Below are positions 27,496 to 51,053 of a DNA stretch of 64,000 nucleotides, one piece after another. The notes beneath the pieces were generated by a model. The model had not been told where the DNA came from and searched no databases. It was given only the letters and a program-made list of their open reading frames with translations. Made by a program: the position numbers and the translations under genes. Source of the DNA: a virus (Duplodnaviria > Caudoviricetes). Location of the stretch: IMG/VR virus record IMGVR_UViG_3300026274_000001; one strand, given 5' to 3'. Position 1 is the first letter of the stretch. Each line of letters starts with the position of its first letter.

Positions 27496-27687
27496 ATGGA
27501 AGTCGAAGCGTATTTCATAGTAGACACAGTTGGCAAGAATCTCAATAAGGTTGTCGGTGGTCCGTATTGGAACGAAGTCGAAGCTGAGATGAAAATGGAA
27601 AAAATGCGTGTACAAGTAGGTGATGAATCACGCTTTAAGATCCGCCCTGCAACCATGACAATTCACTTTAAACCAGAAGAGGATTAA
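27496..27687 (+). CDS. hypothetical protein
   Basis: Start uncertain (27451 or 27496); TAATG-coupled to the HAD gene. Confidence 0.55.
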   Translation: MEVEAYFIVDTVGKNLNKVVGGPYWNEVEAEMKMEKMRVQVGDESRFKIRPATMTIHFKPEED

Positions 27688-28169
27688 TGTTTGATACGAT
27701 CTTTTTAGATTTGGAAGATACAGTGATTGAGTCCTGGCACTCTCCGTATTACACCAATCTACAGAAAGTTCGTAAATGGTTGAAAGATAACACAGTTACT
27801 GAAGTTGGCATTTTTAGCTTCGCTATTCATAATGATGCTGACAAAGCAATTTTTGATCAGCAAATGCGAGTTGGCTTAACTGATGCGCTTGGCATAAGAA
27901 TAACCACATGGCCATCAGTCCTCGAGATGATGACAATTGACACCAAATATACGGGTGATCATTGGGTACGTCCGGGAGTAACCCAGAGCGAAGGGGTTAC
28001 TGACTATGTCAACATGCGGGGTAAGCAGAACGCTTTCATTAATTTTGTGAACGCGACCTTACCCAATTCACGTCATGCTGCTTTATTGGATGACATAGTG
28101 GAAGATGTGACGCTTACATATAGAAACACTGGACGACAAATCAGTATGGTGAATGTACTGAAATTGTAA
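27687..28169 (+). CDS. HAD-superfamily phosphatase
   Basis: Motif I IFLDLEDT; C-terminal LLDD. Confidence 0.7.
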   Translation: MFDTIFLDLEDTVIESWHSPYYTNLQKVRKWLKDNTVTEVGIFSFAIHNDADKAIFDQQMRVGLTDALGIRITTWPSVLEMMTIDTKYTGDHWVRPGVTQSEGVTDYVNMRGKQNAFINFVNATLPNSRHAALLDDIVEDVTLTYRNTGRQISMVNVLKL

Positions 28170-28188
28170 GCACCATATCAATACCATG

Positions 28189-28212
28189 ACGCCGCGTTTG
28201 CGGCGTTTTTTC
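28189..28212 (+). terminator. intrinsic terminator
   Basis: ACGCCGC-GTTT-GCGGCGTTTTTT. Confidence 0.85.
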
Positions 28213-28324
28213 ATTGCAAAAATACAACAGTATGTTCATCTTGTGGTGCTACACTACAAGGTTCGCTGATTAGTAATACCGTTTCATTTCAGGAACAAAA
28301 CTTCAACAAATTGCCATTCTTTTG

Positions 28325-28353
28325 TTGACTGATGAATGGCAGATCAGTATAGT
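28325..28353 (+). promoter_or_regulatory. sigma70-type promoter of the DUF2828 gene
   Basis: TTGACT-17-TATAGT; TGCCATTC/GAATGGCA dyad brackets the -35. Confidence 0.8.
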
Positions 28354-28452
28354 TTGACTCTGTTGAAGATTAAGTGAAAGTTGGGATCGAAAACATCAAA
28401 GGCGTGCCACAAGGCCGGTCCCGTTTAAATGTGAATAATAAGGAGAACGAAT

Positions 28453-29916
28453 ATGGGTTTCAAAGCAGCAGTAGCAAACACGGAAGTTTTTGGCGAAACC
28501 GCAAATGGTGCGGCGACTCTGGTATCGAGTCTGGATCCAGTAGTTGATTTGTTCTTTGCCATCGGTTCCAGCCGTGGTAAGGATCTGACCGCCCCGTTCG
28601 CTGCCGCTTATGGTGCTAGCCGTGAACATGCTTTGCGTGTACTGGCTTGGGCACGTGATATTCGTGGTGGAGCAGGCGAGCGTGACACGTTCCGCAAGCT
28701 GCTTCAATACCTGGAAGCAAATCGCCCACTGGATGCTGAACTGATGGTACCGTTCGTGCCCGTGTATGGCCGTTGGGACGACTTGTTCGCGTTCAAGACC
28801 GACCGTCTGCGTCATGCTTCGTTTGCGCTGATTGATCGCGCATTGAAGAACCAAGATGGTCTGTGCGCAAAGTGGATGCCGCGCAAGAACAAGGCCGCAG
28901 CTTTTAAGGATGGCAAGGAATTGCGTCCGGCTGACAAGACGCAACAAGAACTCATGAAGTTTATGGGTCTGTCGCAAAAGCAATACCGAAAGCTGTTGGT
29001 TGGCTTGACGAACGTGGTTGAAACGAAGATGTGCGCAAAGGATTGGGATTCGATCGAGTTTGGTAAGATCCCGTCGATTGCAGCGTCGCGTTATCAAAAG
29101 GCGTTTGGTCGCAATGCAGCAGATTCGTACGCGAAGTACAAGGAAGCACTGGAAAACGGTGAAGCGAAGGTTAACGCCTCTGCGATCTTCCCGCACGACG
29201 TAGTGAAGTCGATGTTCGCTGGTGACCGTGTTGTCGCGAAAGCGCAATGGGAAGCACTGCCGAACTTCCTGGGTGATGATTGCATTCTCCCAATGGTCGA
29301 CTTGTCGGGCTCGATGAGCATGCAAAACATCCCCGGCTGCACCAACCTGACCGCGATGGACGTGGCGATCAGCTTGGGTCTCTACATTGCTGACAAGCAA
29401 AAGGGTGCATTCTCGGATATGTGGCTGACGTTTGCCGATACGCCGAAGATTGATATCCTGAAGGGCGATATCATCAGCAAGCTGGACCAAATGCGCCGTG
29501 GTGAAGTTGGCTACAGCACGAATGTGGAAGGCGCGTTCAAGGAAGTGTTGCGTGTGGCGGTGAAGAACAAGGTTGCGCAAGCAGAAATGCCCAAGTATAT
29601 CCTGTTGCTGAGCGACATGGAATTCAACGCGGCAACTGGTGGTGCAGATGTCACCCTGTACGATCAGTTCCGTGTTGACTTCGAAGCTGCTGGTTACGAG
29701 CTGCCGAAGATTGTTTTCTGGAACCTCAATGCTCGTGCAGGTAACGTCCCTGTGCGCTTTGACGAGGCTGGTACTGCGTTGGTTAGCGGTTTTAGCCCGG
29801 CAATCCTGAAGTCGATCCTTGCTGCTAAGGCATTCTCGCCGAAGGATATTATGTTGACGGCGATTATGGACTTGAAGTATGACGTGCTTGGTACGCAAGT
29901 TGCTGTGGCTGCGTAA
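28453..29916 (+). CDS. DUF2828 / TROVE(Ro60)-like helical-repeat + vWA protein
   Basis: TANGA; ARDIRGGAGER; YGRWDDL; AKWMPR; MIDAS DLSGS; LLSDMEF; VFWNL; SD AAGGAG. Confidence 0.85.
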   Translation: MGFKAAVANTEVFGETANGAATLVSSLDPVVDLFFAIGSSRGKDLTAPFAAAYGASREHALRVLAWARDIRGGAGERDTFRKLLQYLEANRPLDAELMVPFVPVYGRWDDLFAFKTDRLRHASFALIDRALKNQDGLCAKWMPRKNKAAAFKDGKELRPADKTQQELMKFMGLSQKQYRKLLVGLTNVVETKMCAKDWDSIEFGKIPSIAASRYQKAFGRNAADSYAKYKEALENGEAKVNASAIFPHDVVKSMFAGDRVVAKAQWEALPNFLGDDCILPMVDLSGSMSMQNIPGCTNLTAMDVAISLGLYIADKQKGAFSDMWLTFADTPKIDILKGDIISKLDQMRRGEVGYSTNVEGAFKEVLRVAVKNKVAQAEMPKYILLLSDMEFNAATGGADVTLYDQFRVDFEAAGYELPKIVFWNLNARAGNVPVRFDEAGTALVSGFSPAILKSILAAKAFSPKDIMLTAIMDLKYDVLGTQVAVAA

Positions 29917-29932
29917 TCGCAAATAGCAACAT

Positions 29933-29962
29933 AAACGGCGAGCTAATAGCTCGCCGTTTCTT
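29933..29962 (+). terminator. intrinsic terminator
   Basis: AAACGGCGAGCTA-A-TAGCTCGCCGTTTCTTT. Confidence 0.8.
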
Positions 29963-29974
29963 TGAGTAAAATAC

Positions 29975-30328
29975 ATGAATGTAGTCACAAAAGATATGCG
30001 TTGGTATGGCGAGCCTCCCGAAATAGCGGTAGTGCAGCAAGTACTGAAAGATCCAAATATCAAAGATCAATGGTCTATTTGGATTTATGATGGTTATGGT
30101 TTTCAAGCACTAGGTGATGCAAACCTGTTATACTCTACATGGTATAAAAGCGCCAGAGCGGCAATCAGCCAAGCACGGGTGATTCAACAAGAAGACACTT
30201 GGAAACATTTGCCAATCGGTGTGTATTATGGTGGCGCAAGCTTCAGTTCGAAAAAAGAAACACCACATACGCGGATTACTATAGAAAGCGATTTTGATGC
30301 TATACAACTAATACTGACTATGGAGTAA
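29975..30328 (+). CDS. paralog family B member
   Basis: C-terminal ITIESDFDAIQLILT resembles genes at 33312-36049. Confidence 0.65.
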   Translation: MNVVTKDMRWYGEPPEIAVVQQVLKDPNIKDQWSIWIYDGYGFQALGDANLLYSTWYKSARAAISQARVIQQEDTWKHLPIGVYYGGASFSSKKETPHTRITIESDFDAIQLILTME

Positions 30329-30330
30329 CA

Positions 30331-30870
30331 ATGAATAAAAATCTCACAGATTTAAGTAAGTTCCTCAGTTACGTTCTGCGTCACAAGCCAGAGTCCATTG
30401 GCCTAAAGCTTGACAGCGAAGGCTGGGCCGACATTGCAGAATTGATGGCAAAACAGCAAGCAAATGGTCCAGTTGCCATGTTGCTGGATGACATTATGAC
30501 TGTTGTGGCTGACAACGACAAAAAGCGCTTTGAAGTGAAGGATGGGAAAATTCGTGCGGTGCAAGGACATTCATCCAAACAAGTTGATCGAGAATTCAAA
30601 GCCGTAGTGCCGCCAGTGAAATTGTTTCATGGCACGGCAACCAAGTTTGTAGACTCAATTCTCAAGCAAGGATTACAGCCACAGTCTAGACATCATGTTC
30701 ACCTGTCTGCTGATATCGAAACTGCGGTAAAAGTCGGTCAGCGTCACGGTAAGGTGGTGGTATTTGAAGTTGATTCAAAGCGTATGTATGCTGATGGAAT
30801 CAAGTTCTTCCAAGCTGAAAATGGCGTCTGGTTGACGGACGTAGTACCAGCCAAGTACCTGTCACAATAA
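30331..30870 (+). CDS. kptA: RNA 2'-phosphotransferase Tpt1/KptA
   Basis: SKFLSYVLRH; KKRF; IRAVQGHS; LFHGT; RHHVHLS; NGVWL. Confidence 0.93.
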   Translation: MNKNLTDLSKFLSYVLRHKPESIGLKLDSEGWADIAELMAKQQANGPVAMLLDDIMTVVADNDKKRFEVKDGKIRAVQGHSSKQVDREFKAVVPPVKLFHGTATKFVDSILKQGLQPQSRHHVHLSADIETAVKVGQRHGKVVVFEVDSKRMYADGIKFFQAENGVWLTDVVPAKYLSQ

Positions 30871-30934: not shown

Positions 30935-31942
30935 ATGATGAAAAAGTATGTTGCAGTCATAGCAGCACTGATGTTAGCTGGTTGTGGGGGAGGGGGCGGT
31001 GGTGATAATTCAAATACGTCAGCCGCGTCCACGCCGGCTAGTTCACCCACACCAGCATCAAGCCCAGCGGTGGTTACCGCTTCAGCACAAGGCATTTACA
31101 ACACTTCAGTAGGTGCAACGGGCGCACTGACTAATATAGTATTGCCTGATGGTTCGTTTTACATATTCAATGTCAATAATGCAGTCTTTACTGACATTGT
31201 TATTGGTGATAGTACGGTAACATCAACAACCATCAATTCCACAAACGCGGTTGATTTTTCATTCGCAAATGCAAGCAGCACCAATGTTTTGCTTGCGGCA
31301 ACTTATGTGTCGAAACAGACCCTTAATGGTTCGTTAACGATAACGAGTCAAGTAGTACCGTTTGCTAGTGATTATAACCAAGCATACGACAACACGATCG
31401 CATTGACTCAAATAGCTGGTGCGTATACGGGGGCGAATGCAACGCTTAGCGGCCCCGTACAAAATCAGATCACGATAAAACCTGATCTTTCTTTCATAGG
31501 GGTGTCAAGTACCTGTCAGTATGCTGGACAATTAACTGCAAGTCATGGTTCACTTTATACGGTAACCATTACATTCCCTGCAGGTTGTCCGTTTGCCGGT
31601 ACAGCGATAACTGGTATTGCAACATTTGATCCAACTCTCAACCAGCTAACCATCGTTGCGTCGCCCCAAAATCGAGCCGATGTGTTTCTTGCTATAGATA
31701 CCATGCCTGCAACAGCACCAAGCACCGCTCCAGGTACTTGTAGTGTGTTTGCACCGTCGTCAAGCTGTTCACCTCTAGGTACTGTTCCCGCAGCCACTAC
31801 ACCTGCTAGCTCAACTTCCGCTACGCCATCAAGCCCAGCAAGTGGAACGACACAAACCGGTAGTGGGACTGAGACGTGCACTAATCCGACAGGCTGCACG
31901 TCAAGTGGTAGTACGACAACGGGGGCCACGGCAGGTACGTGA
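30935..31942 (+). CDS. Ser/Thr/Pro-rich outer-membrane lipoprotein (CGGGGGG type)
   Basis: Lipobox LAGC followed by G6; low-complexity linkers; beta-rich core. Confidence 0.8.
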   Translation: MMKKYVAVIAALMLAGCGGGGGGDNSNTSAASTPASSPTPASSPAVVTASAQGIYNTSVGATGALTNIVLPDGSFYIFNVNNAVFTDIVIGDSTVTSTTINSTNAVDFSFANASSTNVLLAATYVSKQTLNGSLTITSQVVPFASDYNQAYDNTIALTQIAGAYTGANATLSGPVQNQITIKPDLSFIGVSSTCQYAGQLTASHGSLYTVTITFPAGCPFAGTAITGIATFDPTLNQLTIVASPQNRADVFLAIDTMPATAPSTAPGTCSVFAPSSSCSPLGTVPAATTPASSTSATPSSPASGTTQTGSGTETCTNPTGCTSSGSTTTGATAGT

Positions 31943-31974: not shown

Positions 31975-32003
31975 AACGGGAAGCAATTGCTTCCCGTTTT
32001 TTT
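31975..32003 (+). terminator. intrinsic terminator (24-bp perfect palindrome)
   Basis: AACGGGAAGCAATTGCTTCCCGTT plus T-tract. Confidence 0.85.
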
Positions 32004-41548: not shown

Positions 41549-41890
41549 TTATTCATCCGACCATTCGTTTATGGGAACGCTACCAGTTTCAGCTAGCAGT
41601 TTTTCGCCATCCCAGGCAAGGAAGAATAAGTTCTCTGCATAACCACCTTCATTGTCGTCTTCCCAAAGAAAGGAATTGTTGTGGCGGTGAATTGCCATCA
41701 CGACCCATTCTTCGTAGCCTTGAGCTGCAAATGCTTCAACCAATTCTTCACACGTAATGTCCTTGAACATTACGTCATCACCGTCCATTGTGACGCGATC
41801 ACCGTATTTGGCTTTGCACGAATTAAACAATTCAACGTAAGCTTGCTTGCGCGGAAAATGCGAGTTCTTGAGGGTGACTTCAACTTTCAT
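41549..41890 (-). CDS. hypothetical protein
   Basis: SD AAGGAG. Confidence 0.75.
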   Translation of the reverse strand: MKVEVTLKNSHFPRKQAYVELFNSCKAKYGDRVTMDGDDVMFKDITCEELVEAFAAQGYEEWVVMAIHRHNNSFLWEDDNEGGYAENLFFLAWDGEKLLAETGSVPINEWSDE

Positions 41891-41912
41891 CTTGTTCTCC
41901 TTGTTTACAGAC

Positions 41913-41950
41913 CAGGTTCAAATGATATACTCACTTGAACATGCAAGCAA
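41913..41950 (-). promoter_or_regulatory. early promoter, hairpin family
   Basis: TTGCTT-17-TATCAT; CATGTTCAAGTGA/TCATTTGAACCTG. Confidence 0.88.
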
Positions 41951-41959
41951 GCTTTTCCT

Positions 41960-44101
41960 TTATTGCCCAGTATAACCCTGTGGTACGGTCGCATTGGCTG
42001 CTGCAACTGTCGCATTTGTCGATACTACATATTGGGGAACTTCAGTGAGTGTTAGTGTCACCTGACCATTGGTATATGGGACTGTAGTCACGTTACCATA
42101 GCCATCAATATCAGTCACGTTACCTGAAGTACCTGCCGAATCAACTTGAAGCGTGTATGGGGTTGAGTATGTCTGACTATAAAGTCCACCGGTTGCTGGC
42201 CACTGTGCATTGTTGTGTGTCCATGCAGCAGTCACGACCTTACCACCACCAAGTTGTTGAAATGCATATGCAAACACACCCGCGGGAGCACTTGTGATTC
42301 GACCTAACGTATTAGTACCATCGAGTGCTCTCGTCATAGCTGCGAATACCATAGCTTCAGGCTTCGGAGACAAATTAGATGCACCGTATGCCCCTTGTGC
42401 ATCGTTCAGGTCGAAGAAGGTACCGTATCCAACTTCACCTGGATAATCTGATCCATAGAACAGGGTCGTCAATTGTGCCCCACCGCCGAGCGTGATAATG
42501 TGTGCCCTAACTCCAACCGCAGCTTGAGCAAACAACTGATTTTGCGATGGTGATGTGGGTCCATAGTTAATACCCGGATCATAGCTTGCTCCAGCTTCAG
42601 TTACGAACAACTTCATATTCGGCTTGCCGGCTTGCATGACTGATCGCAATAGAATCAATTGATTATCAAGTGCATTGGCTTGATTGGCTGGATCTGGATC
42701 TGAGTCCTGTAATTCGGGCGGATGGGCTGGATATGTGCCAGCATTCCAATAACCATGGGTTGACACCGCATCGATATAATTCCATAGACCAAGAGCACCA
42801 TAAGTCTGCAAATAACCCGATGTGCAAGTATTGCAGTTTGCCGCGAATGGATTAGTGGTCCCCATCACCACCGCATTTGGATCGGTTGAATGAATCCCCA
42901 GATATGCGGCTTTGAATAGAGTAACAAAATTCGCAGAAATGTCAGCCCATCCTAGGCTTGGTTCCCATGTCACCTGATAATAATTGTTTTGCTGATTTGG
43001 ATAATTTGCCGCCTTGATTGCACTAGTGTCAGTACCAACCTTAGCCATGAAACTCTGATATTCAGTTAGATTCACGGGGGCATAATATGAATCCGTGTAT
43101 GCGCCAGTTGGACTATTCCAAGCGGGAATACCATCAAGACGCACTATGCGCATCTGGTCAGGGTTAGCCTTGTAGAATGGGTCCAGGTCGCTCACGCTTG
43201 GGGTATACGTGTTAGGGCCGTTTGGCTCCATGACAGATTGTTCTCGATCATCAATCGTCCATGAAATACCCAAGTCATGCAATGCGGCAATGTTGTCATT
43301 GAACCCCTGCATGCCGAATCGATGCTGATCCTGGTGGGCATAAGTTACTGTACCGATAACTGACGACAGGTTAGGCAAAACACCGAATGTGGCTATACCA
43401 GTGGGTCGTGTGCCCATAGTCGGTAACGTGCCTCCATTAGATTGCAATGTGGCCGAGATCGCTCCATAACCCGACCATGTTGATACGCATGCCATAGTGT
43501 TAGTCAACGTTCCGGTTCCAACTGGAAAACTACCTTGTGTACGGATAGTACCAGTGGCATCAACTATTGACCATATTACCGTATCAGCACTTGGTGAATT
43601 GGTGGTTACTGTAAGATTGAATGGCGTATTATTTTGGAAAATACGCATACCATCAGTGGTAGTGGTATCAACGCTGATTAATCCATTGGCGGTGCCGCCT
43701 GCTGATTTGGTTGGTGCACCACAACTAATAGCTGATGTGGTACCAGGTACCACAGGTGTAGTTGGATTTGCTGGGGAGGTGGCCGACGCTGCGGTGGAAC
43801 TACCAATTGCAGCCCCCGTAGTGCCTGCTGGCGCTGTTGCACTGGAACCAGTAGTGCTAGGAGACGTGGAACCGGGAGCGGCGGTTGTAGCTGATCCTGT
43901 AGTGTTAGGAGTGTTAGGAGTGCTGGTAGTGCCAGTTGTACTAGGGTCACCTGTCGCACCAGCAGCACTTGCACCACTTGCGGCGCTTGCAGCGCTTACA
44001 CTACTTGTTCCATTAGAACTACCGCCGCCACCTCCACAAGCTGATAGCGAAGTGATTGCGGCACTAACCATCAATGCCATTAATAGTTTGTTCATTATCA
44101 T
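41960..44101 (-). CDS. lipoprotein with GH39-like (clan GH-A) glycoside hydrolase and beta-sandwich domains
   Basis: Lipobox LSAC-GGGGGSS; S/T/P/A linker; YYQVTWEP; DAVSTHGY; LFVTEAG; C-terminal LTLTEVPQYV. Confidence 0.78.
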   Translation of the reverse strand: MIMNKLLMALMVSAAITSLSACGGGGGSSNGTSSVSAASAASGASAAGATGDPSTTGTTSTPNTPNTTGSATTAAPGSTSPSTTGSSATAPAGTTGAAIGSSTAASATSPANPTTPVVPGTTSAISCGAPTKSAGGTANGLISVDTTTTDGMRIFQNNTPFNLTVTTNSPSADTVIWSIVDATGTIRTQGSFPVGTGTLTNTMACVSTWSGYGAISATLQSNGGTLPTMGTRPTGIATFGVLPNLSSVIGTVTYAHQDQHRFGMQGFNDNIAALHDLGISWTIDDREQSVMEPNGPNTYTPSVSDLDPFYKANPDQMRIVRLDGIPAWNSPTGAYTDSYYAPVNLTEYQSFMAKVGTDTSAIKAANYPNQQNNYYQVTWEPSLGWADISANFVTLFKAAYLGIHSTDPNAVVMGTTNPFAANCNTCTSGYLQTYGALGLWNYIDAVSTHGYWNAGTYPAHPPELQDSDPDPANQANALDNQLILLRSVMQAGKPNMKLFVTEAGASYDPGINYGPTSPSQNQLFAQAAVGVRAHIITLGGGAQLTTLFYGSDYPGEVGYGTFFDLNDAQGAYGASNLSPKPEAMVFAAMTRALDGTNTLGRITSAPAGVFAYAFQQLGGGKVVTAAWTHNNAQWPATGGLYSQTYSTPYTLQVDSAGTSGNVTDIDGYGNVTTVPYTNGQVTLTLTEVPQYVVSTNATVAAANATVPQGYTGQ

Positions 44102-44139
44102 TTCCTAAAGTATATTGCCATGTTTGTATGGCAAGGTAT

Positions 44140-44167
44140 ATATTAAGGAAATGAAGTGAATTGTCAA
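44140..44167 (-). promoter_or_regulatory. sigma70-type promoter, flanked by TTGCCAT/ATGGCAA dyads
   Basis: TTGACA-16-TAATAT on the - strand. Confidence 0.6.
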
Positions 44168-44213
44168 CAGTAATGGCAAAACCAAGTTTGCCATTATGTG
44201 TTCTATAGATGGT

Positions 44214-44242
44214 AAAAGGGTCTACAAGACGTAGACCCTTTT
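44214..44242. terminator. intrinsic terminator
   Basis: AAAAGGGTCTAC-AAGAC-GTAGACCCTTTT. Confidence 0.8.
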
Positions 44243-44261
44243 ATTCTTTTGTAACTGGTTG

Positions 44262-44702
44262 TTATTTGGCTTTGTCAGGGAATATCATCATAGTGCGCAT
44301 GAATGGATCATATTCCATAAACGTAGTCATGTACATTTCTTTACCGCAAAAATACACTTTGTTGGTGCCACCACCAGCCACCTTACCGTCATACTTGCTC
44401 CATACGAAATCCGGAGCATACGGATCACCAGCGATTGCAACAAACCTCATCAGGTTCGCAGTCATTTCGTTATCGGTGCGGCTAGCGTGATGCTTGAGCC
44501 CTTTGTATTGATGTACCCCAAGTAAGCACAATTCCAAACCAACTTGACCCAGAATTACTTTAAGGATTTCATATTGCTCTCGGTATATACGTGAGAATCC
44601 GAAGTCGTCTGGGTGGCCTACGAATGTTTGGGTGGGGAATTTGAGCGTTTTCTTTTCGAAACCAGTTCGAATACGCGGGGGATAGTTGTGGGGATAATAC
44701 AC
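44262..44702 (-). CDS. hypothetical protein
   Basis: SD GGAGG; GTG start. Confidence 0.7.
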   Translation of the reverse strand: MYYPHNYPPRIRTGFEKKTLKFPTQTFVGHPDDFGFSRIYREQYEILKVILGQVGLELCLLGVHQYKGLKHHASRTDNEMTANLMRFVAIAGDPYAPDFVWSKYDGKVAGGGTNKVYFCGKEMYMTTFMEYDPFMRTMMIFPDKAK

Positions 44703-44711
44703 AGCACCTCC

Positions 44712-44759
44712 TGAAGTTTTACCATACTAGATGATAGCTTCAGTTGGTGCATAAATCAA
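44712..44759 (-). promoter_or_regulatory. early promoter, hairpin family
   Basis: TTGATT-17-TATCAT; TGA-N5-TCA; ATGGTAAAA at 44725. Confidence 0.8.
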
Positions 44760-44761
44760 AC

Positions 44762-45121
44762 TCAATCACCCTGCCATACAGCAGTCGGACAAAGTACCGC
44801 CAGGTGCATCATCTGAATCAACGCTATTTTCACGTTGCCTTCAGTGGCCTTCCAGTAATCTTCATCCGTATCATCTGCTAATTTACTAATAGCAGTGGCG
44901 ATAAGCGGCCAGGATTCCATTCCAGTTTTGCCGTACAGAACGCGAATGCCTTCTTCCGGGTCCAGAACCTTACGCAGGATCGCTCCATAGTTGTACGTGA
45001 TGTTGATGCTGGCGTGGTCATCACCGCCGACAACATACGTGCCTTGACGTAAGTCCAGCTTCATAGGAAGCTTCGCACAGTCACCAGTCTTCTGATCAAT
45101 CAAATCAATATCATAACTCAT
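44762..45121 (-). CDS. hypothetical phage protein
   Basis: MSYDI...NITYNY...YWKATEGN. Confidence 0.75.
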   Translation of the reverse strand: MSYDIDLIDQKTGDCAKLPMKLDLRQGTYVVGGDDHASINITYNYGAILRKVLDPEEGIRVLYGKTGMESWPLIATAISKLADDTDEDYWKATEGNVKIALIQMMHLAVLCPTAVWQGD

Positions 45122-45503
45122 TTGCTGCCTCCACAAAATTTATATCTGACGGTTTCACCAGCGCATAGCAGCGTTTATTATGTCGATTACGGTTACAAAT
45201 CACAAAATAATTCTGTTTGATCACTTCATGAAATGCCCATTCAGGCACCTCTGATTTCCCAGCAGCAACTTGGCTTGGTGATCGTACCTGAACCTCATGG
45301 AACTGTCGTGTCTTACGTGTAACAAAGACCTTGTAAGGGTAGTGATCATACTTTGATTCCCCCTTGGTATAGACGCTACGGGGACCATTGAGCACATTAT
45401 GTGGTGCATAGATTAGGATACTAGTCCCTTCTTTTACCTCCCACATCACAAGCTCCTTGAAACTAAGAAGTTCAGATGATACGTGCAGGTGGCACAAAGT
45501 CAA
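45111..45503 (-). CDS. hypothetical protein
   Basis: Overlaps both neighbours; start uncertain. Confidence 0.6.
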   Translation of the reverse strand: MTLCHLHVSSELLSFKELVMWEVKEGTSILIYAPHNVLNGPRSVYTKGESKYDHYPYKVFVTRKTRQFHEVQVRSPSQVAAGKSEVPEWAFHEVIKQNYFVICNRNRHNKRCYALVKPSDINFVEAANEL

Positions 45504-45904
45504 GCATTGTCATTCGACATCAAATATCGGCGATCGAGTTCTTCATCCAGTATTGCATCAAGTGCATTAGCTCTTAGGATTGCTTGCGGTCCGAAGAATG
45601 CTTCTATCGCAAGCTCTCCGTGATCGTTTTCAATATAGTAGCGCACCAGAGCATATCGCTGCGCGTCTGAGCGATTGATCTCAGACTCAGCAGCTAATCT
45701 TTTAATAAGCTTAGCATCACTATGGCGCGTCATTTGATCGACGGTAATTAGCTGTTCCAAGCTGTCGCGCTCTTGTACCAATGAATTCATTTCATGTTGC
45801 ATTAATAACCAATTAATGCCAAAGCCAAGACCAAATACAACCGCTAGCCCAATAATGAAACAAACATCAACAAGGTAATTACTATCAATTATTTGATTCA
45901 TCAT
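45500..45904 (-). CDS. membrane-anchored hypothetical protein
   Basis: N-terminal TM; ATGA overlap with upstream gene. Confidence 0.65.
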   Translation of the reverse strand: MMNQIIDSNYLVDVCFIIGLAVVFGLGFGINWLLMQHEMNSLVQERDSLEQLITVDQMTRHSDAKLIKRLAAESEINRSDAQRYALVRYYIENDHGELAIEAFFGPQAILRANALDAILDEELDRRYLMSNDNA

Positions 45905-46083
45905 AATACACGCTTGCAAGTGGCAGTAAAGGTTTGTGTTGTTCCATCTTGTACGGTGGAATATGAAGTGGTATTCCACTTACAAGCACGGAAGAATGCT
46001 TGGGCACCCTGTTGTGCATAGCTGGTATTGTCACACGCAGATAAGGTAAATGCGCAAATTGCGATTAGAATTATAGTTTTCAT
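45901..46083 (-). CDS. small lipoprotein
   Basis: Lipobox LSAC. Confidence 0.7.
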   Translation of the reverse strand: MKTIILIAICAFTLSACDNTSYAQQGAQAFFRACKWNTTSYSTVQDGTTQTFTATCKRVL

Positions 46084-46379
46084 TTAATGATGATAGTTGC
46101 GTTTGGTCGGCGATCACGAATAAAGTCGGCTACTGGAACACCAGCTGCTTCGTAAGCCCGAATTTCAATTGTGATTATTTCCCAATCACTTGGTATACGA
46201 TATATTTCAATAGCATTTTTATTATGAGTATATTCTTTCAAGTAATTGAAATGACTCATCAATCCACCAATGTTGGTCCATGTCTTCCCGTTCTTAGACC
46301 AACTTGGCGGTTTACCACCAGTTGAATAAAGCCCAGTTGTGCGACTTCTAATTTTGTAATGCAGGAGCATGTCGGCCAT
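46080..46379 (-). CDS. hypothetical phage protein
   Basis: YKIRSRTTGLYSTGG..P.WSK.GKTW. Confidence 0.7.
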   Translation of the reverse strand: MADMLLHYKIRSRTTGLYSTGGKPPSWSKNGKTWTNIGGLMSHFNYLKEYTHNKNAIEIYRIPSDWEIITIEIRAYEAAGVPVADFIRDRRPNATIIIK

Positions 46380-46387
46380 ATGCTAGA

Positions 46388-46558
46388 TCACTTGCTATTG
46401 ATTTTGCTGATAGCGTCTTCTTGAGTGGTTACACCAAGTTGCTTGTAGATGACGTGCAGATTGTGGTGATTCTTACCGAACCACTTATCAAATTTAACAC
46501 CCAGATAGATACCAAGTGCAAGAATGGCAATGCCACCAAGATCAAAGAGGAAAAACAT
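46388..46558 (-). CDS. small membrane protein (56 aa)
   Basis: SD AAGGA; TM then HLHVIYKQLGVTTQEDAI; not in the supplied track. Confidence 0.6.
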   Translation of the reverse strand: MFFLFDLGGIAILALGIYLGVKFDKWFGKNHHNLHVIYKQLGVTTQEDAISKINSK

Positions 46559-46573
46559 GTGAGTCCTTTATTA

Positions 46574-47014
46574 TTAATTGAAAACGTATTCCAGCTTACC
46601 AGTGCGATACTTACCTTTATCCACTCGACTCAAATCAAAGTTGAAGTGATTAACGAACGCTCGACTATATGAATGAATCATTTCTTCAGCAACGGTGCAG
46701 TGCGGTTTATCAGTGTCAAGAATCTTGAGCATCTTCTCGATCAAGTGCAACCCCGTTCCTTTGTTTTGATAACTGGGTAACACTCGAACACATCGCAATT
46801 TGGTTTCATCAGGGGTGACCTTGCCGAGTGCAACTCCGACAATTTGTTCGTGTTCCTTTGCCAGAAGAAGCACGTCATCACCCGTGATCAACCCAGGAAT
46901 CATTGTGTTTACATACCAGTATTCAAAATCTGGGTAAAGCTCAGTCAAACTGTTGAGGATCGGCAAAACGTTGAATGCCTCAACGAATGACTTTGACTGG
47001 TGATATTCAATCAT
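46574..47014 (-). CDS. GNAT acetyltransferase
   Basis: IVGVALG...KLRCVRVLPSYQNKGTGLHL. Confidence 0.85.
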   Translation of the reverse strand: MIEYHQSKSFVEAFNVLPILNSLTELYPDFEYWYVNTMIPGLITGDDVLLLAKEHEQIVGVALGKVTPDETKLRCVRVLPSYQNKGTGLHLIEKMLKILDTDKPHCTVAEEMIHSYSRAFVNHFNFDLSRVDKGKYRTGKLEYVFN

Positions 47015-47030
47015 TTACACCACGCAAAAT

Positions 47031-47057
47031 AAAAGGTGCCATATTGTGGCACCTTTT
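47031..47057. terminator. intrinsic terminator
   Basis: AAAAGGTGCCA-TATTG-TGGCACCTTTT. Confidence 0.8.
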
Positions 47058-47077
47058 ATGAATGGCATCAAGCGTAA

Positions 47078-47458
47078 TTAAAGATCTGGAACTTCGTCCC
47101 CGAATACGTTACCGATCATCACCTTACACACAGCTTCACCTAACGTGGGACCCTGGTATCTAATTCGACCACTGGTCGCGTCATACGCTCTTGGTCCCTT
47201 TGGTCCCTTTTCAAATCCCTTGCTAGCATACTTGCATAATGGGATTGCGTAGATATCATTGCTGCTCATCGTTCCAAACATTGATTGAGCGTCGTTGTAC
47301 GGTTCATATTTCATGAACCTGATCTCAGTACTGTTGAAGTCTTGCAACGTGTATTTAAACAAGCATTCGCCCTTCTCCATTTTCACCAGATCTTTCGCCC
47401 CGGTGGCAACTGCAAACCAGTATGACAGCAACGGCCCAGACAAATCATTAGTTTTCAT
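47078..47458 (-). CDS. DUF2591-family phage protein
   Basis: MKTNDLSGPLL.YW.A...GPTLGEAVCK...FGDEVPDL. Confidence 0.75.
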   Translation of the reverse strand: MKTNDLSGPLLSYWFAVATGAKDLVKMEKGECLFKYTLQDFNSTEIRFMKYEPYNDAQSMFGTMSSNDIYAIPLCKYASKGFEKGPKGPRAYDATSGRIRYQGPTLGEAVCKVMIGNVFGDEVPDL

Positions 47459-47642
47459 CTAATACCTGTAGTTGATGTTCTGCTTCATGAAGTTTGATAC
47501 GAAGAGCATCGCGCTCTTCGGTCAAATTGCCGACCATCATTGCAATGTCGGTCAGAAAGGCCTCAGTATTGCCTTTATGCGTATTGAGTAGTGTTCGGAT
47601 CTCGGTCCGATAGAACCGAAGTTCACTGTGAGTCAATGCCAT
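47448..47642 (-). CDS. hypothetical protein
   Basis: Operon context. Confidence 0.6.
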   Translation of the reverse strand: MALTHSELRFYRTEIRTLLNTHKGNTEAFLTDIAMMVGNLTEERDALRIKLHEAEHQLQVLDEN

Positions 47643-47759
47643 ATTTTCACCTATCAAAAGAATAGTCCCGTTAAACACCATTTCAGTTAAATGATAACAT
47701 GAAACTAGTGCATTAACGGGACCGTGTTGTTTTCTTTTCCTTGACGGTTTTTCTTTTAC

Positions 47760-47966
47760 TTAGTCAGCCTGGTGGTAATCATATTTGGGCGAAATCGTCT
47801 CGTATTCAGGCTTTAACACTTTACATGGTGGCTTCATATTGGTTATTTCGAGTACCAATTCCTTTACTCGATTCTGAATGAATAACTGGCAGGTCGTCCA
47901 ACCGGCTTGCCCAATTTCATCAACTGCTCGTTTGTAAGCTGCAAGTTCTAGATTGTCAGAAACCAT
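47760..47966 (-). CDS. hypothetical protein
   Basis: SD GGAG. Confidence 0.55.
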   Translation of the reverse strand: MVSDNLELAAYKRAVDEIGQAGWTTCQLFIQNRVKELVLEITNMKPPCKVLKPEYETISPKYDYHQAD

Positions 47967-48089
47967 CAAATATCTCCAAGTTCTTTGTTGTATTGTTACT
48001 CCCCTGAGTGTCAATACTATACATAAACATAAACGCGGTAGTAGATACTAATGCAAAAAAATGTAAGGAAAGTTAACTGACTTGGACAT

Positions 48090-48125
48090 TGAAAATGACC
48101 ACAATCAAACTTGTGGTCATTTTCA
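48090..48125. terminator. 15-bp hairpin, probable terminator
   Basis: TGAAAATGACCACAA/TTGTGGTCATTTTCA. Confidence 0.7.
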
Positions 48126-48143
48126 ACTACCAGTGATTGTGAA

Positions 48144-48557
48144 TTAGGCGATAGCCGTCTCGCGCACTTTTGCTCTCGTTATCCGTCGGCCGTGTTTGTA
48201 CGTACTTTCCTTTACACGGATTGTATTTAGAATCACTACGGGTGGTTCTCTGACTATTACTGGACCAACAATTCCAATAGCCGCCGCCGCCCTCAATACT
48301 GCATATCGAGTAGCGCGAGCGGAATTATGGTTATGAACGTCGTGTTGCTCGATAAGCAATTGCACATGCCCCCCGTCAGCGTCAACTTTCGTAATTACCG
48401 TCTGCTTTTTAAAAGAATCAATACTTATATTCAACATTAGCGCTTGTGCCACTTCCAGTGTTTGCCGATCACATATAAGAGGATTGAAATACAGCATCTC
48501 TCCGATTGTTAATCCCATTGCGCGGGCGGCCATCTCTCGAAGTTCTTCATCGTTCAT
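48144..48557 (-). CDS. DUF2591-like phage protein
   Basis: FNPLICDRQTL...ATRYAVLRAAAAIG. Confidence 0.65.
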   Translation of the reverse strand: MNDEELREMAARAMGLTIGEMLYFNPLICDRQTLEVAQALMLNISIDSFKKQTVITKVDADGGHVQLLIEQHDVHNHNSARATRYAVLRAAAAIGIVGPVIVREPPVVILNTIRVKESTYKHGRRITRAKVRETAIA

Positions 48558-48574
48558 GTTGCACTCCATATGAA

Positions 48575-48940
48575 TTATGAGCTATTTGATCGCGACTTTA
48601 ATTTACCAATAAAAATCTTACATTGTGCAAATGTTTCGCTTGCAAACCCCAACTTATTCATTTCAACGACGTCATTCGTTTCGACCATATTCAAACAATG
48701 GTTAAGTAGACGTTTCATGTTGATGGTTGGCAATTCTCGATTCACCTGCGCGGCCTGTTGCTTCTGTTGTTGAGCAACTAGGTATTCACGCACCTCCAGT
48801 AGTTCACTTTTCGTGCCACTGTAGTCATTCCCATGGGCCCATTCAATAGCTCGATCGATTGAATAAAACCATTGTGGAAGAACTCCCGATGAAATTTCCA
48901 ACTCACCAAGCGAGCTATTGTTTTCTGAAGTATCGCTCAT
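48575..48940 (-). CDS. hypothetical protein
   Basis: SD GAGG. Confidence 0.65.
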   Translation of the reverse strand: MSDTSENNSSLGELEISSGVLPQWFYSIDRAIEWAHGNDYSGTKSELLEVREYLVAQQQKQQAAQVNRELPTINMKRLLNHCLNMVETNDVVEMNKLGFASETFAQCKIFIGKLKSRSNSS

Positions 48941-49093
48941 GTATTTCCTCAATTGCTTGGACAAGCACGTAAACTCTACGTTTCCGTGTTTGCGCATATA
49001 ATATGCATAAACTAGAAGTGAACCGCAACAACTAAAAACATCAAAACGTTGCATTTATGCAACCTGTACGTTACGCTAAGTTACCGTACATCG

Positions 49094-49582
49094 TTATTGC
49101 TGTTTCCGTAACGAACTCAGTTCTTTAAGTGCCTTACGAGCTATCTCTCTTAACTCATCAGGATCGTCGGTCTTAGATACCGCGATGGAGCCTATTGTCT
49201 GTATCAAGAGTTCTCTCTGGGTTTCCACGTTCAATTGATACGTCCCAACCTCCATGAATTTATTCAAGAACATCTCTATTACCTTCAGTTCTTGTAAAGA
49301 TGTGATATTTGGAGCTTTTATGGGAATTGGATTACGACATCTTGCATTGAGTGCATCATTGACCGCCTGTAGCACTGCTGGAGTAAAGGATGTGTCTATG
49401 ACTGCGTATGGGGAGAAGCCTTTATTACCGTAGACCATTGCAGCGCCTTCGAATTGACCCCAAGCGTAGTTGAAGCTCATGAACATGGTACCTGACCACA
49501 TCGCGACTGGGCCTAGTCTTCCGTCTCCGTAGTACCAGGCTCCTCGCTGCATATCTTCTAGTGGTAGTTCCATTGGAATCAT
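49094..49582 (-). CDS. hypothetical protein
   Basis: TAATG coupling. Confidence 0.7.
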   Translation of the reverse strand: MIPMELPLEDMQRGAWYYGDGRLGPVAMWSGTMFMSFNYAWGQFEGAAMVYGNKGFSPYAVIDTSFTPAVLQAVNDALNARCRNPIPIKAPNITSLQELKVIEMFLNKFMEVGTYQLNVETQRELLIQTIGSIAVSKTDDPDELREIARKALKELSSLRKQQ

Positions 49583-49983: not shown

Positions 49984-49985
49984 GA

Positions 49986-50402: not shown

Positions 50403-50632
50403 TCTGTTTTCTCCAAGTATCCGGCGAAGACTGCATCTTTATCCTCGTAGCCGCGATTCCATTCAGCTTTGCATTGTTGCTGGGTGGGGAACACGTACAG
50501 ATGTTCCTTGTATGGGCCGTAGGGATTATCGCTTTTGGGGAAGTTACCCAGACGTGCAAGGACACCCTGATAGTAATAGGGTTTGAGGGCTGTTCTAAGC
50601 CGCAGATGAACGTGATCGTAATATGTGGTCAT
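50399..50632 (-). CDS. RMF (ribosome modulation factor)-like motif protein
   Basis: YYQGVLARLGN...NPY...EWNRGY. Confidence 0.6.
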   Translation of the reverse strand: MTTYYDHVHLRLRTALKPYYYQGVLARLGNFPKSDNPYGPYKEHLYVFPTQQQCKAEWNRGYEDKDAVFAGYLEKTE

Positions 50633-50946: not shown

Positions 50947-51053
50947 GTGTCACCTTTACATCATTGGATGGCTTGTGGTGCGCGCCATTCTAGTTATTAA
51001 GCACCCACACTATATCGATATTCTGGTACGTGTGGTGAGCTTTGTACGACGTC

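What the first reader, a model, noticed from the sequence alone, without database searches (positions are those of the whole stretch)
27687..30870. Putative RNA end-healing island: HAD phosphatase + TROVE/Ro-like vWA protein + Tpt1/KptA
Seen: a HAD phosphatase (DLEDT), a DUF2828-type helical-repeat plus vWA protein with an intact DxSxS MIDAS motif, and a complete KptA lie within 3.2 kb on one strand. The DUF2828 gene has a consensus promoter, a strong SD and visibly higher GC at third codon positions than its neighbours. Established: Ro60/TROVE proteins bind structured or damaged RNA with Y RNAs; Tpt1 removes 2'-phosphates using NAD+ and can ADP-ribosylate 5'-phosphate ends; HAD domains act as 3'-phosphatases in Pnkp-type repair. 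Inference: a phage module countering host anticodon nucleases or RNase toxins, with a ligase possibly encoded outside this window.
Basis: partly seen in the sequence, partly recalled or inferred. Interest (0 to 1): 0.75.

Follow-up and report, generated by a model that had tools for sequence, protein, structure and literature searches.

The report
Phage Ro60-like RNA-repair gene cluster
An uncultured soil jumbo phage carries, side by side, a small phosphatase of an unannotated family, a ring-shaped Ro60-like RNA-binding protein with its own conserved RNA "handle", and the RNA 2'-phosphate-removing enzyme Tpt1, which together look like a kit for cleaning up cut RNA ends, a kind of system already predicted for large phages.

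Summary
27687-28169 encodes a 160-aa protein that Pfam and PHROGs miss. Its confident model has a HAD phosphatase fold, with polynucleotide 3'-phosphatases among the nearest structures. It belongs to a family of about 690 clusters with an invariant D-L-E-x-T motif. 28453-29916 (DUF2828+DUF7788) folds like Ro60/TROVE (Z 19.1 to Xenopus Ro) and has an intact MIDAS. 30331-30870 is a complete Tpt1/KptA. Promoter, Shine-Dalgarno site and raised GC3 are real.

The trio is not a conserved module. The HAD-like gene lies next to DUF2828 in five lineages and within about 5 kb in a sixth. Tpt1 does so only here and in one 87% relative, which lacks the HAD gene. A terminator separates the HAD gene from DUF2828.

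Context still supports RNA-end work. In 134 other DUF2828 loci, 52 have a calcineurin-like or DSP phosphoesterase nearby, 15 have an AAA_33 kinase, and about half of the full-flank loci checked adjoin tRNA arrays. DLExT-HAD genes also sit beside RNA ligase, Thg1 and cREC genes.

The DUF2828 leader (28383-28422) carries a covarying "CAGCAA-handle" hairpin. This scan found such handles before beside DUF2828 genes in many other phages. I confirmed that they cluster there.

No ligase or kinase was recognised in the window. Verdict: a new variant of a known kind, of moderate interest.

The parts
27687..28169 (+). Stand-alone HAD-fold phosphatase candidate of the unannotated 'DLExT' family (160 aa; D8, E10, T12, S44, K113, D135, D136)
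   Evidence: No Pfam or PHROG hit. AF2 model pLDDT 92.9. VIA-wide: nearly all of the top 50 are HAD enzymes; T4 Pnkp phosphatase 5uj0_B Z 7.5, rmsd 3.7, 124 aligned. Family of 692 clusters with the motif residues invariant or nearly so.
28188..28207 (+). Intrinsic terminator ending the upstream transcription unit that contains the HAD-like gene
   Evidence: 8-bp stem with 6 GC pairs followed by a T run.
28325..28353 (+). Sigma-70-type promoter of the DUF2828 unit (TTGACT-17-TATAGT)
   Evidence: The -35 block is conserved in four relatives.
28383..28422 (+). Conserved leader RNA hairpin, a 'CAGCAA-handle' variant: 7-bp stem, AAAA, CAUCAA, then a small GCC/GGC hairpin. Candidate binding site or partner RNA of the Ro60-like protein.
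   Evidence: Alignment of 5 lineage members. All 10 pairs are kept and 3 pairs covary. It forms in the centroid fold. It is the only copy in the window. Handle-type elements are enriched next to DUF2828 genes in 134 loci.
28441..28446 (+). Shine-Dalgarno sequence AAGGAG of the DUF2828 gene
   Evidence: Read directly from the sequence. Invariant in 5 relatives.
28453..29916 (+). Ro60/TROVE-like ring protein (DUF2828 helical repeats plus DUF7788 vWA domain with an intact MIDAS), 487 aa
29975..30328 (+). 117-aa ORF of unknown function whose stop lies 2 nt before the Tpt1 start. It is split into two small ORFs in the 87% relative.
30331..30870 (+). Tpt1/KptA RNA 2'-phosphotransferase, 179 aa (R17-H18, R75, R120)
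   Evidence: PF01885 1.8e-51. Solved Tpt1 7kw8_A at 1.5e-50 over residues 5-177.
30935..31942 (+). Ser/Thr/Pro-rich lipoprotein (lipobox LAGC). Predicted to be co-transcribed, but probably not part of the RNA function.
31975..31998 (+). Intrinsic terminator ending the DUF2828-orf117-Tpt1-lipoprotein unit
   Evidence: Metatranscriptome contigs of four runs all stop at or before 31941.

Best explanation
This is a loose cluster of accessory genes of an uncultured soil jumbo phage. The genes act on damaged or cut RNA, most likely tRNA, and sit in a long same-strand block of small, mostly unannotated genes. The central part is a Ro60-like ring protein (DUF2828 plus a vWA domain with MIDAS). I infer that it binds structured RNA, including the conserved 'CAGCAA-handle' hairpin in its own mRNA leader. 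That binding could regulate its own synthesis, yield a Y-RNA-like partner, or both. I infer that the neighbouring 160-aa HAD-fold enzyme removes a terminal 3'- or 2'-phosphate left after a metal-independent RNase has cut. In other phages the same position beside DUF2828 is filled by calcineurin-like or DSP phosphatases and an AAA_33 kinase. Tpt1 would use NAD+ to remove a 2'-phosphate remaining at an end or at a ligated junction. Sealing and 5'-phosphorylation need a ligase and a kinase encoded elsewhere. Shown here: the folds, the motifs, the gene order, the promoter and terminators, the conserved leader hairpin, and the neighbourhood statistics. Inferred: every biochemical activity, the identity of the RNA substrate, any physical contact between the proteins, and the link to host defence nucleases.
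For: The Ro60 fold covers the full length: 1yvp_A Z 19.1, rmsd 3.9, 399 aligned; phage phiLo Ro60 9l5y_B Z 14.3; Rsr 2nvo_A Z 13.4; vWA-only hits reach at most 10.5. The Foldseek top 13 are all Ro60/TROVE. MIDAS residues are invariant. HAD fold: the VIA-wide list is dominated by HAD enzymes and includes T4 Pnkp phosphatase, Pnkp1 of the Pnkp1/Rnl/Hen1 complex and mammalian PNKP; viral PNK3P clusters score TM 0.53-0.56. Motifs I-IV sit at the expected ends of strands 1, 2 and 4 and in the helix before strand 4. Tpt1 is complete. The HAD-like gene lies directly upstream of DUF2828 in the window, L010, L182 and L183, two genes upstream in L188, and about 5 kb upstream with an RNA ligase between in L011. 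DLExT-HAD genes also lie near Thg1, RNase II/R and AAA_33+RNA ligase (L012/L013) and directly after a cREC gene (L189). In an unbiased survey of 134 unique DUF2828 loci, the top neighbour clusters are Metallophos of about 200 aa (36 loci), DSP/PTP-SAK-like phosphatase (19), Metallophos of about 272 aa (15), AAA_33 kinase (15) and Rv2179c-like exoribonuclease (10), all on the same strand; 52 of 134 loci have a phosphoesterase. tRNA genes lie within 8-10 kb in 20 of 42 full-flank loci. RNA ligase genes lie beside DUF2828 in Serratia phage BF and in L184. Leader handle. The stretch is held in six soil metatranscriptome libraries, and the contigs of the four runs laid stop before the predicted terminator. 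Published comparative genomics already places TROVE proteins, stand-alone HAD phosphatases and KptA in jumbo-phage RNA repair (PMC7824862, PMC9503650).
Against: All three genes occur together only in strain variants of this one phage. The 87%-identical relative L181 keeps Tpt1 but lacks the HAD gene. Relatives at 63-68% identity keep the HAD gene but have no Tpt1 within the 1-8 kb of downstream sequence available. None of 134 other DUF2828 loci has either partner. A terminator separates the HAD gene from DUF2828. No ligase, polynucleotide kinase, 2H, cREC or Macro domain was recognised among the 107 predicted proteins of the window scanned against Pfam. The HAD assignment rests on a middling Z (7.9 at best) and on a non-canonical motif I with Glu instead of the second Asp. 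Sequence profiles do not link it to known HAD families. Synteny shared by related phages can inflate the neighbourhood counts. Bacterial and phage Tpt1 has no proven natural substrate (my own knowledge of the Tpt1 literature).
Confidence: 0.55

Rival explanations
1. The Ro60-like protein with its handle RNA forms a Y-RNA-type particle that controls host RNA decay rather than repairing RNA. It could, for example, dock on or restrain PNPase or another exoribonuclease, as reported for the Ro60 of Thermus phage phiLo. On this reading the HAD-like enzyme and Tpt1 are unrelated neighbours.
For: The phage phiLo Ro60 is among the closest structures. It binds phage Y-like RNAs and attenuates host PNPase (PMC12135203). 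The handle RNA sits in the gene's own leader. An Rv2179c-like 3'-5' exoribonuclease gene lies near DUF2828 in 10 of 134 loci. Tpt1 and the HAD gene are gained and lost independently.
Against: The commonest neighbours of DUF2828 genes are phosphoesterases and a polynucleotide-kinase-like P-loop protein, followed by ligases and tRNA arrays. These are end-healing functions rather than decay functions. The two readings do not exclude each other.
Confidence: 0.2
2. The adjacency is a by-product of a hyperplastic accessory region. The three genes were inserted independently and have no shared pathway. The HAD-like enzyme might be a nucleotide or small-molecule phosphatase.
For: The trio is not conserved. 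The genes lie in separate transcription units. The DUF2828 gene has an outlying GC3, compatible with separate acquisition. The surrounding genes are small and unannotated. HAD enzymes act on very varied substrates.
Against: The HAD-like-DUF2828 pairing recurs in six lineages down to 49% HAD identity and 63% DUF2828 identity. The same HAD family lies beside RNA ligase, Thg1 and cREC genes where DUF2828 is absent.
Confidence: 0.15
3. Tpt1 serves here in the NAD+/ADP-ribose conflict rather than in tRNA splicing-type repair. It could ADP-ribosylate 5'-phosphate ends of RNA or DNA, or remove regulatory 2'-phosphates from tRNA.
For: Tpt1 belongs to the ADP-ribosyltransferase fold; a weak PARP match appears. 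A WGR-PARP gene sits next to DUF2828 in L184. In Bacillus phage G, Tpt1 lies inside an NAD synthesis cluster. Unverified scan notes place an NAD-salvage locus about 23 kb before this window. 5'-phosphate capping by Tpt1 and erasure of tRNA 2'-phosphouridine by KptA are published activities (my own knowledge; not re-read here).
Against: Nothing in the window points to a specific ADP-ribose target. The Ro60-like neighbour and the published phage surveys favour RNA-end clean-up (PMC9503650).
Confidence: 0.1

Closest known systems
Ro60 (Rsr) with Y RNAs, including the Salmonella rsr-yrlBA-rtcBA RNA-repair operon and Thermus phage phiLo Ro60 with Yrl1/Yrl2 (PMC4201824, PMC12135203)
   Same: A HEAT-repeat ring plus a C-terminal vWA domain with MIDAS. 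A small structured RNA with a closing stem and a large bulge is encoded next to the gene. The genes are linked to RNA repair genes.
   Different: There is no sequence match to Pfam TROVE, and Ro60 chains score only E about 0.7 in a profile search. The RNA element is a 40-nt leader hairpin of the CAGCAA-handle type, not a YrlA-type tRNA mimic; no Rfam match reached any family's gathering score. The linked enzymes are Tpt1 and a HAD-like protein rather than RtcB and RtcA.
T4 Pnkp / PNK3P-type polynucleotide 3'-phosphatase (HAD-IIIA) and the stand-alone 'Swiss army knife' HAD phosphatases of jumbo phages (PMC7824862)
   Same: A capless HAD Rossmannoid fold with motifs I-IV in place. The phosphatase domains of T4 Pnkp and Pnkp1 are among the best structural matches. 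It is a stand-alone protein in phage RNA-repair contexts.
   Different: Motif I is D-L-E-x-T, with an invariant Glu where the general acid/base Asp normally sits. There is no fused kinase. Pfam PNK3P and HAD_SAK models do not match it: 1 of 53 members shows a weak HAD_SAK_2 hit, and hhalign gives E 0.014.
Tpt1/KptA RNA 2'-phosphotransferase
   Same: A full-length match to solved bacterial Tpt1 enzymes with the Arg-His-Arg-Arg residues present. Homologues occur in 98 phage records, mostly jumbo phages.
   Different: Adjacency to a Ro60-like gene was seen only here and in one close relative. No yeast-type ligase that would create 2'-phosphate junctions was identified.
Bacterial Pnkp-Hen1 and split kinase/metallophosphatase end-healing pairs
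   Same: In other phages the DUF2828 gene sits beside an AAA_33 kinase and a calcineurin-like phosphoesterase, the two healing activities of bacterial Pnkp. The HAD-like gene occupies the equivalent neighbouring place here.
   Different: No kinase, Hen1 or ligase was recognised in this window.

Membership tests
Tpt1/KptA (PF01885) | Family profile match above the curated threshold over the full domain | tested here: met
   175.2 bits against a cutoff of 26; residues 6-170 match model positions 4-176 of 177. phrog_5470 at 1.3e-65.
Tpt1/KptA (PF01885) | Catalytic Arg-His-Arg-Arg tetrad | tested here: met
   R17-H18, R75 and R120 align with identical residues of solved Tpt1 7kw8_A and 6ede_A. Which residues are catalytic comes from my knowledge of the Tpt1 literature.
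Tpt1/KptA (PF01885) | NAD+-dependent removal of an RNA 2'-phosphate | not testable with these tools
   Needs an enzyme assay.
Ro60/TROVE | Ring of HEAT-like helical repeats joined to a C-terminal vWA domain | tested here: met
   AF2 model pLDDT 87. 1yvp_A Z 19.1, rmsd 3.9, 399 aligned over model residues 10-461. 9l5y_B Z 14.3; 2nvo_A Z 13.4. Foldseek E down to 2.8e-7 and TM up to 0.61.
Ro60/TROVE | MIDAS motif DxSxS...T...D in the vWA domain | tested here: met
   D283, S285, S287, T356 and D388 are invariant in 37 sequences.
Ro60/TROVE | Sequence membership in Pfam TROVE (PF05731) | tested here: not met
   Only DUF2828 and DUF7788 are reported at E <= 0.01. Ro60/TROVE chains score E 0.68 in a profile search of PDB sequences.
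Ro60/TROVE | A dedicated small structured RNA partner (Y RNA) encoded nearby | tested here: inconclusive
   One conserved handle hairpin lies in the leader. Handle-type elements are enriched beside DUF2828 genes, 295 on the gene's strand against 64 on the other, with 100 within 500 nt upstream. Binding was not tested. No Rfam Y RNA match.
HAD superfamily phosphatase | Rossmannoid HAD core fold | tested here: inconclusive
   Model pLDDT 92.9. Nearly all of the top 50 VIA-wide rows are HAD enzymes, but the best Z is 7.9 (3cnh_B, rmsd 3.5, 117 aligned), within the range the tool calls middling. Foldseek gave only generic Rossmann-like hits.
HAD superfamily phosphatase | Motif I DxDx(T/V) with nucleophile Asp and Asp+2 general acid/base | tested here: not met
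   The motif is D8-L-E10-D-T12. E10 is invariant and D8 nearly invariant in 53 family representatives. The nucleophile position is kept, while Asp+2 is replaced by Glu.
HAD superfamily phosphatase | Motif II Ser/Thr, motif III Lys, motif IV acidic pair | tested here: met
   S44, K113 and D135-D136 are invariant or nearly so. In the model they sit at the end of strand 2, in the helix before strand 4 and at the end of strand 4.
HAD_SAK / PNK3P RNA-repair phosphatases | Profile match to PF10307, PF18143 or PF08645 | tested here: not met
   No match for P0001 even at E <= 10. 1 of 53 relatives matches HAD_SAK_2 at E 0.0012. hhalign against three phage HAD_SAK_2 proteins gives E 0.014, aligning only motifs I and II.
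Conserved three-gene RNA end-healing module | Co-occurrence of the three genes in related phages | tested here: not met
   The trio occurs only in strain variants. Relatives carry pairs only. None of 134 other DUF2828 loci has either partner.

The most novel reading that the evidence does not exclude
The DUF2828 ring protein with its CAGCAA-handle RNA is a second, so far unpublished branch of Ro/Y-RNA particles. Phages would use it as a platform for mending cut tRNAs. The DLExT proteins would be a new class of RNA-end phosphatase, with Glu as the general acid, that works on this platform. Tpt1 would then be an optional add-on for 2'-phosphate ends.
Probability: 0.25. Interest if true: 0.75.

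Novelty: new variant of a known kind. Interest (0 to 1): 0.5.

Why it matters
Phage RNA repair is a counter-move to host defences that cut tRNA, and only the T4 Pnkp/Rnl1 pathway is understood in biochemical detail. This locus adds three testable things. First, a sizeable phage protein family (about 690 clusters at 50% identity) that current domain libraries do not recognise. It looks like a HAD phosphatase with an unusual catalytic motif and keeps company with RNA-repair genes. Second, a Ro60-shaped protein whose own mRNA leader carries the conserved RNA handle found beside this protein family in many phages. That gives a simple in-vitro binding and autoregulation experiment. Third, a natural case of Tpt1 linked to a Ro-like protein, which may help find a substrate for bacterial and phage Tpt1. 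The general idea that jumbo phages combine TROVE proteins, HAD phosphatases and KptA for RNA repair is already in the literature, so the advance is in the particulars.

Tried and rejected
- The complex prediction of P0002 with P0001 gave no verdict (score 0.00). It says nothing either way.
- Foldseek of the HAD-like model against PDB and Swiss-Prot gave only weak generic Rossmann-fold rows.
- A sequence profile of the HAD-like family against PDB sequences found nothing meaningful.
- I looked for the window's own contig to check for ligases. There was no near match in the INPHARED phages, no genome is held, and exact-pattern scans of metagenome contigs and viral contigs found nothing. The records behind L010 and L004 are not searchable. 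Ligases elsewhere in the genome therefore remain unverified.
- jackhmmer with three phage RNA ligases, an AAA_33 kinase and Thg1 found no relative in the window.
- Pfam scans of 107 window proteins found no ligase, kinase, 2H, Macro, RtcB or cREC domain.
- The 335-aa gene after Tpt1 is a lipoprotein, not a ligase.
- Rfam found no Y RNA, tRNA or other family in the window.
- Model R1 of the leader hairpin found no second copy in the window and no significant copy in 80 other DUF2828 loci.
- A loose stem-plus-CNGCAA scan of the window alone gave mostly hits inside coding sequence and was not informative.
- The leader is not more stable than shuffled sequence (z +1.2).
- The 117-aa ORF has no informative relatives by sequence, features or shape.
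- The CBB phage paper does not mention the DUF2828 homologue, so the 'structural protein' label in some GenBank records could not be traced.
- The metatranscriptome data are contigs only. They cannot show transcript starts, strand or expression level, and DNA carry-over is not excluded.

Full report
WHAT THE WINDOW IS

The window is a run of small, mostly unannotated genes. They lie on the + strand to about 39.8 kb, on the - strand to about 58.2 kb, then on the + strand again. It has no near match among 50,697 phage records and no whole genome is held for it. The proteins of the finding occur on metagenomic contigs of up to 224 kb, and relatives on contigs of 290-524 kb. PHROG matches and virus-dominated Atlas clusters mark it as a jumbo phage. 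The same DNA is held by soil and peat sequencing runs.

THE OBSERVATION

All stated features are present.
- The three ORFs are at the stated places.
- The first begins MFDTIFLDLEDTV.
- The second matches DUF2828 and DUF7788 and carries D283-x-S285-x-S287.
- The third is a full-length Tpt1/KptA with the Arg-His, Arg and Arg residues aligned to solved enzymes.
- The promoter TTGACT-17-TATAGT (28325-28353), the AAGGAG site and the raised GC3 (0.594 against 0.442 +/- 0.061) are real.

THE 160-AA PROTEIN

Pfam, PHROGs and PDB sequence searches see nothing. Eleven relatives share invariant D8, E10, T12, S44, K113, D135 and D136. The AlphaFold model is confident (pLDDT 92.9).

Foldseek returned only generic Rossmann-like rows. 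The exhaustive VIA-align search returned a list made almost entirely of HAD enzymes:
- 3cnh_B: Z 7.9, rmsd 3.5, 117 aligned.
- T4 Pnkp 3'-phosphatase domain 5uj0_B: Z 7.5, rmsd 3.7, 124 aligned.
- 1ltq_A: Z 6.9.
- Pnkp1 of the Pnkp1/Rnl/Hen1 complex, 4xrp_A: Z 6.7.
- Mammalian PNKP 3zvl_A: Z 5.9.

The ESM Atlas gave three unannotated viral clusters at TM 0.79-0.85, then viral PNK3P-type HAD clusters at TM 0.53-0.56. The Z-scores are in the range the tool calls middling. I therefore rest the HAD assignment on two things together: the uniform make-up of the hit list, and the conserved residues falling exactly where HAD motifs I-IV belong (end of strand 1, end of strand 2, the helix before strand 4, end of strand 4).

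A profile search of 1.84 billion representatives found 692 clusters (493 below 1e-10), nearly all of 150-190 residues. In 53 of them L9, E10, T12 and K113 are invariant, and D8, S44, D135 and D136 nearly so. The family signature is therefore D-L-E-x-T, with Glu in place of the canonical second Asp.

Pfam recognises only 1 of 53 members, weakly, as HAD_SAK_2. hhalign against three phage HAD_SAK_2 proteins aligns motifs I and II but is not significant (E 0.014). I therefore call it a HAD-fold family that is not a member of the annotated RNA-repair HAD families.

THE 487-AA PROTEIN

It belongs to a very large family: at least 7,983 clusters, and 710 phage records with matches no better than about 50% identity. 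The model (pLDDT 87) matches Ro60 over its full length. The Foldseek top 13 PDB hits are all Ro60/TROVE entries, with E down to 2.8e-7 and TM up to 0.61. VIA-align gives Xenopus Ro 1yvp_A Z 19.1 (399 aligned), phage phiLo Ro60 Z 14.3 and Deinococcus Rsr Z 13.4. These are clearly above the vWA-only matches, which reach at most 10.5.

By sequence it is not in Pfam TROVE. I found no paper describing DUF2828 in this light, although PHROGs labels the family 'RNA-binding protein'.

THE CONSERVED LEADER RNA

Aligning the region upstream of the gene in four relatives (63-87% protein identity) showed three conserved blocks: the -35 region, the Shine-Dalgarno site, and a block at 28383-28422. This block forms a 7-bp stem, followed by AAAA, CAUCAA (CAGCAA in two relatives) and a small GCC/GGC hairpin.
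- All pairs are kept in all five sequences, and three pairs change on both sides.
- With five sequences the shuffle control is only modest (25 of 500).
- The centroid fold of the leader contains the structure, but the leader is not unusually stable.
- A covariance model finds no other copy in the window or in 80 other loci.

Notes of this scan on other genomes describe small RNAs beside DUF2828 genes that share a 'handle' of a 7-bp stem, three bases and CNGCAA. I tested that claim on my own sample. In 134 unique DUF2828 loci (1.83 Mb) the pattern occurs 295 times on the gene's strand and 64 times on the other strand. Of the 295, 100 lie within 500 nt upstream and 49 within 500 nt downstream of the gene, and 119 loci have at least one.

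The window's leader hairpin is therefore a variant member of that family, with a four-base spacer and CAUCAA. It is the only copy here. By analogy with Ro60 and Y RNAs (PMC4201824, PMC12135203), I infer that it is bound by the protein. This scan has found the protein-RNA pairing before on other DNA. I found no publication of it.

IS IT A MODULE?

Strain variants of this phage in several samples keep the order HAD-like, DUF2828, orf117, Tpt1. The relatives differ:
- L181 (87% DUF2828 identity) keeps orf117 remnants and Tpt1 but lacks the HAD-like gene.
- L010, L182 and L183 (63-68%) keep the HAD-like gene directly upstream of DUF2828 and have no Tpt1 in the 1-8 kb of downstream sequence available.
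- L188 has the HAD-like gene two genes upstream of DUF2828.
- L011 has the HAD-like gene, then an RNA ligase, then DUF2828, within 7 kb.
- None of 134 further DUF2828 loci has a DLExT-HAD or a Tpt1 within the 8-10 kb flanks fetched.
- Seven Tpt1-centred loci lack DUF2828.

The HAD-like-DUF2828 pair is a recurrent association. Tpt1 is a recent and local addition.

CONTEXT

Where DUF2828 is absent, the DLExT-HAD gene lies near Thg1, an RNase II/R and an AAA_33-RNA ligase pair (L012/L013). In L189 it lies directly after a cREC gene; cREC is predicted in the literature to open cyclic phosphates (PMC7824862).

I clustered all neighbours within 5 kb of DUF2828 in 134 unique loci, without choosing families beforehand. 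All of the following lie on the same strand:
- calcineurin-like phosphoesterase of about 200 aa: 36 loci;
- DSP/PTP phosphatase with weak PTP-SAK likeness: 19 loci;
- a 272-aa metallophosphoesterase: 15 loci;
- AAA_33 P-loop kinase: 15 loci;
- Rv2179c-like 3'-5' exoribonuclease: 10 loci.

Of the 134 loci, 52 have at least one phosphoesterase, and every kinase-bearing locus also has one. tRNA genes lie within 8-10 kb in 20 of 42 full-flank loci, and 16 of these have five or more. RNA ligase genes sit beside DUF2828 in Serratia phage BF and in L184, the latter together with a WGR-PARP gene.

These counts are not corrected for shared ancestry of the phages. Even so, the kinds of neighbours are consistently RNA-end enzymes and tRNAs.

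WHAT IS MISSING

Pfam scans of 107 of about 135 predicted proteins of the window found no RNA ligase, polynucleotide kinase, 2H, cREC, Macro or RtcB. Ligase and kinase queries taken from related loci also found nothing. Notes of this scan report an Rnl2-type ligase, an RlaP-like transferase, a tmRNA and an NAD-salvage locus elsewhere in the same genome. I could not reach that DNA, so these remain leads.

EXPRESSION

Six soil metatranscriptome libraries hold the stretch. In the four runs laid, contigs cover 26500 to about 31940 and all stop before the predicted terminator at 31975-31998. In one run a separate contig spans 28282-29930, the DUF2828 gene with its leader. These are contigs, so this is only a weak hint of transcription and of the unit's 3' end.

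COMPARISON WITH WHAT IS KNOWN

Comparative surveys already state that jumbo phages combine RNA ligases, stand-alone HAD phosphatases, a ROT/TROVE protein in a subset, and KptA for repair of cleaved tRNA (PMC7824862, PMC9503650). The closest worked examples are the bacterial rsr-yrlBA-rtcBA operon and the phage phiLo Ro60-Yrl particle, which restrains PNPase (PMC4201824, PMC12135203).

This locus is a new variant of that kind. It has a Ro60-shaped protein outside the TROVE sequence family, a different partner RNA type placed in its own leader, an unannotated HAD-like family with a Glu in motif I, and a local link to Tpt1.

VERDICT

- Best explanation: an RNA-end clean-up and RNA-surveillance cluster centred on the Ro60-like protein (confidence 0.55).
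- Main rivals: a Ro/Y-type regulator of RNA decay with unrelated neighbours (0.2); chance adjacency (0.15); an NAD/ADP-ribose role for Tpt1 (0.1).
- Interest is moderate (0.5).

Noticed in passing
window 54353-56377 (-): A 674-aa hybrid sensor kinase (two PAS domains, HisKA, HATPase_c and a receiver domain) encoded by the phage. It matches phrog_20458 and several other phage families.
   Followed up: no
window 3845-4654 (+): An R2K-clade ATP-grasp protein (PF18299 and PF14243, about 1e-18; phrog_7313).
   Followed up: no
window 102-39767 (+), among 44 ORFs scanned together: One ORF has a GatB/YqeY domain (2.4e-12) and one a ribosomal L7/L12 C-terminal-like domain (2.6e-4). I did not determine which ORFs.
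   Followed up: no
window 9284-61789, among 44 ORFs scanned together (mostly the minus-strand block 41549-58196): A dCMP/cytidine deaminase, a PLD-like protein, two GNAT acetyltransferases and a phosphopantetheine-binding (carrier) protein.
   Followed up: no
window 30935-31942 (+): A Ser/Thr/Pro-rich lipoprotein with lipobox LAGC, predicted to be co-transcribed with Tpt1. Relatives are found in L181, L183 and, weakly, L010.
   Followed up: partly
L002 6852-6966 (Citrobacter phage Ci1) and L003 9154-9272 (Aeromonas phage Aeh1): Oversized 115-119-nt matches to the tRNA model lie beside the DUF2828 genes, one of them next to a feature annotated as a pseudo-tRNA. They may be tRNA-like partner RNAs.
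   Followed up: no
L184 4184-5512 (-) and 8823-10022 (-): A WGR-PARP gene and a T4 Rnl1-type RNA ligase flank a DUF2828 gene (57% identical to the window's).
   Followed up: no
L016 (Bacillus phage G) 3628-8338: Tpt1 sits inside a cluster annotated as nicotinate phosphoribosyltransferase, nicotinate-nucleotide adenylyltransferase and NAD synthetase. This links the NAD-consuming enzyme to NAD supply.
   Followed up: no
L189 6688-7486: In a phiKZ-like contig a cREC_REC gene (PF20274) lies directly upstream of a DLExT-HAD gene.
   Followed up: no
L188 2350-2799: An SmpB gene lies about 4 kb upstream of the DLExT-HAD and DUF2828 genes of another large phage contig.
   Followed up: no
window 29901: A strain variant with a 6-nt insertion (two extra residues near the C-terminus of the Ro60-like protein) is seen in one metatranscriptome contig. 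A 489-aa version of the protein (two extra residues) is also seen in L006.
   Followed up: no
L004 12645-13184: In one metagenome contig of the same phage the Tpt1 gene is called as two pieces (67 and 111 aa). This is either a frameshift or an assembly error.
   Followed up: no
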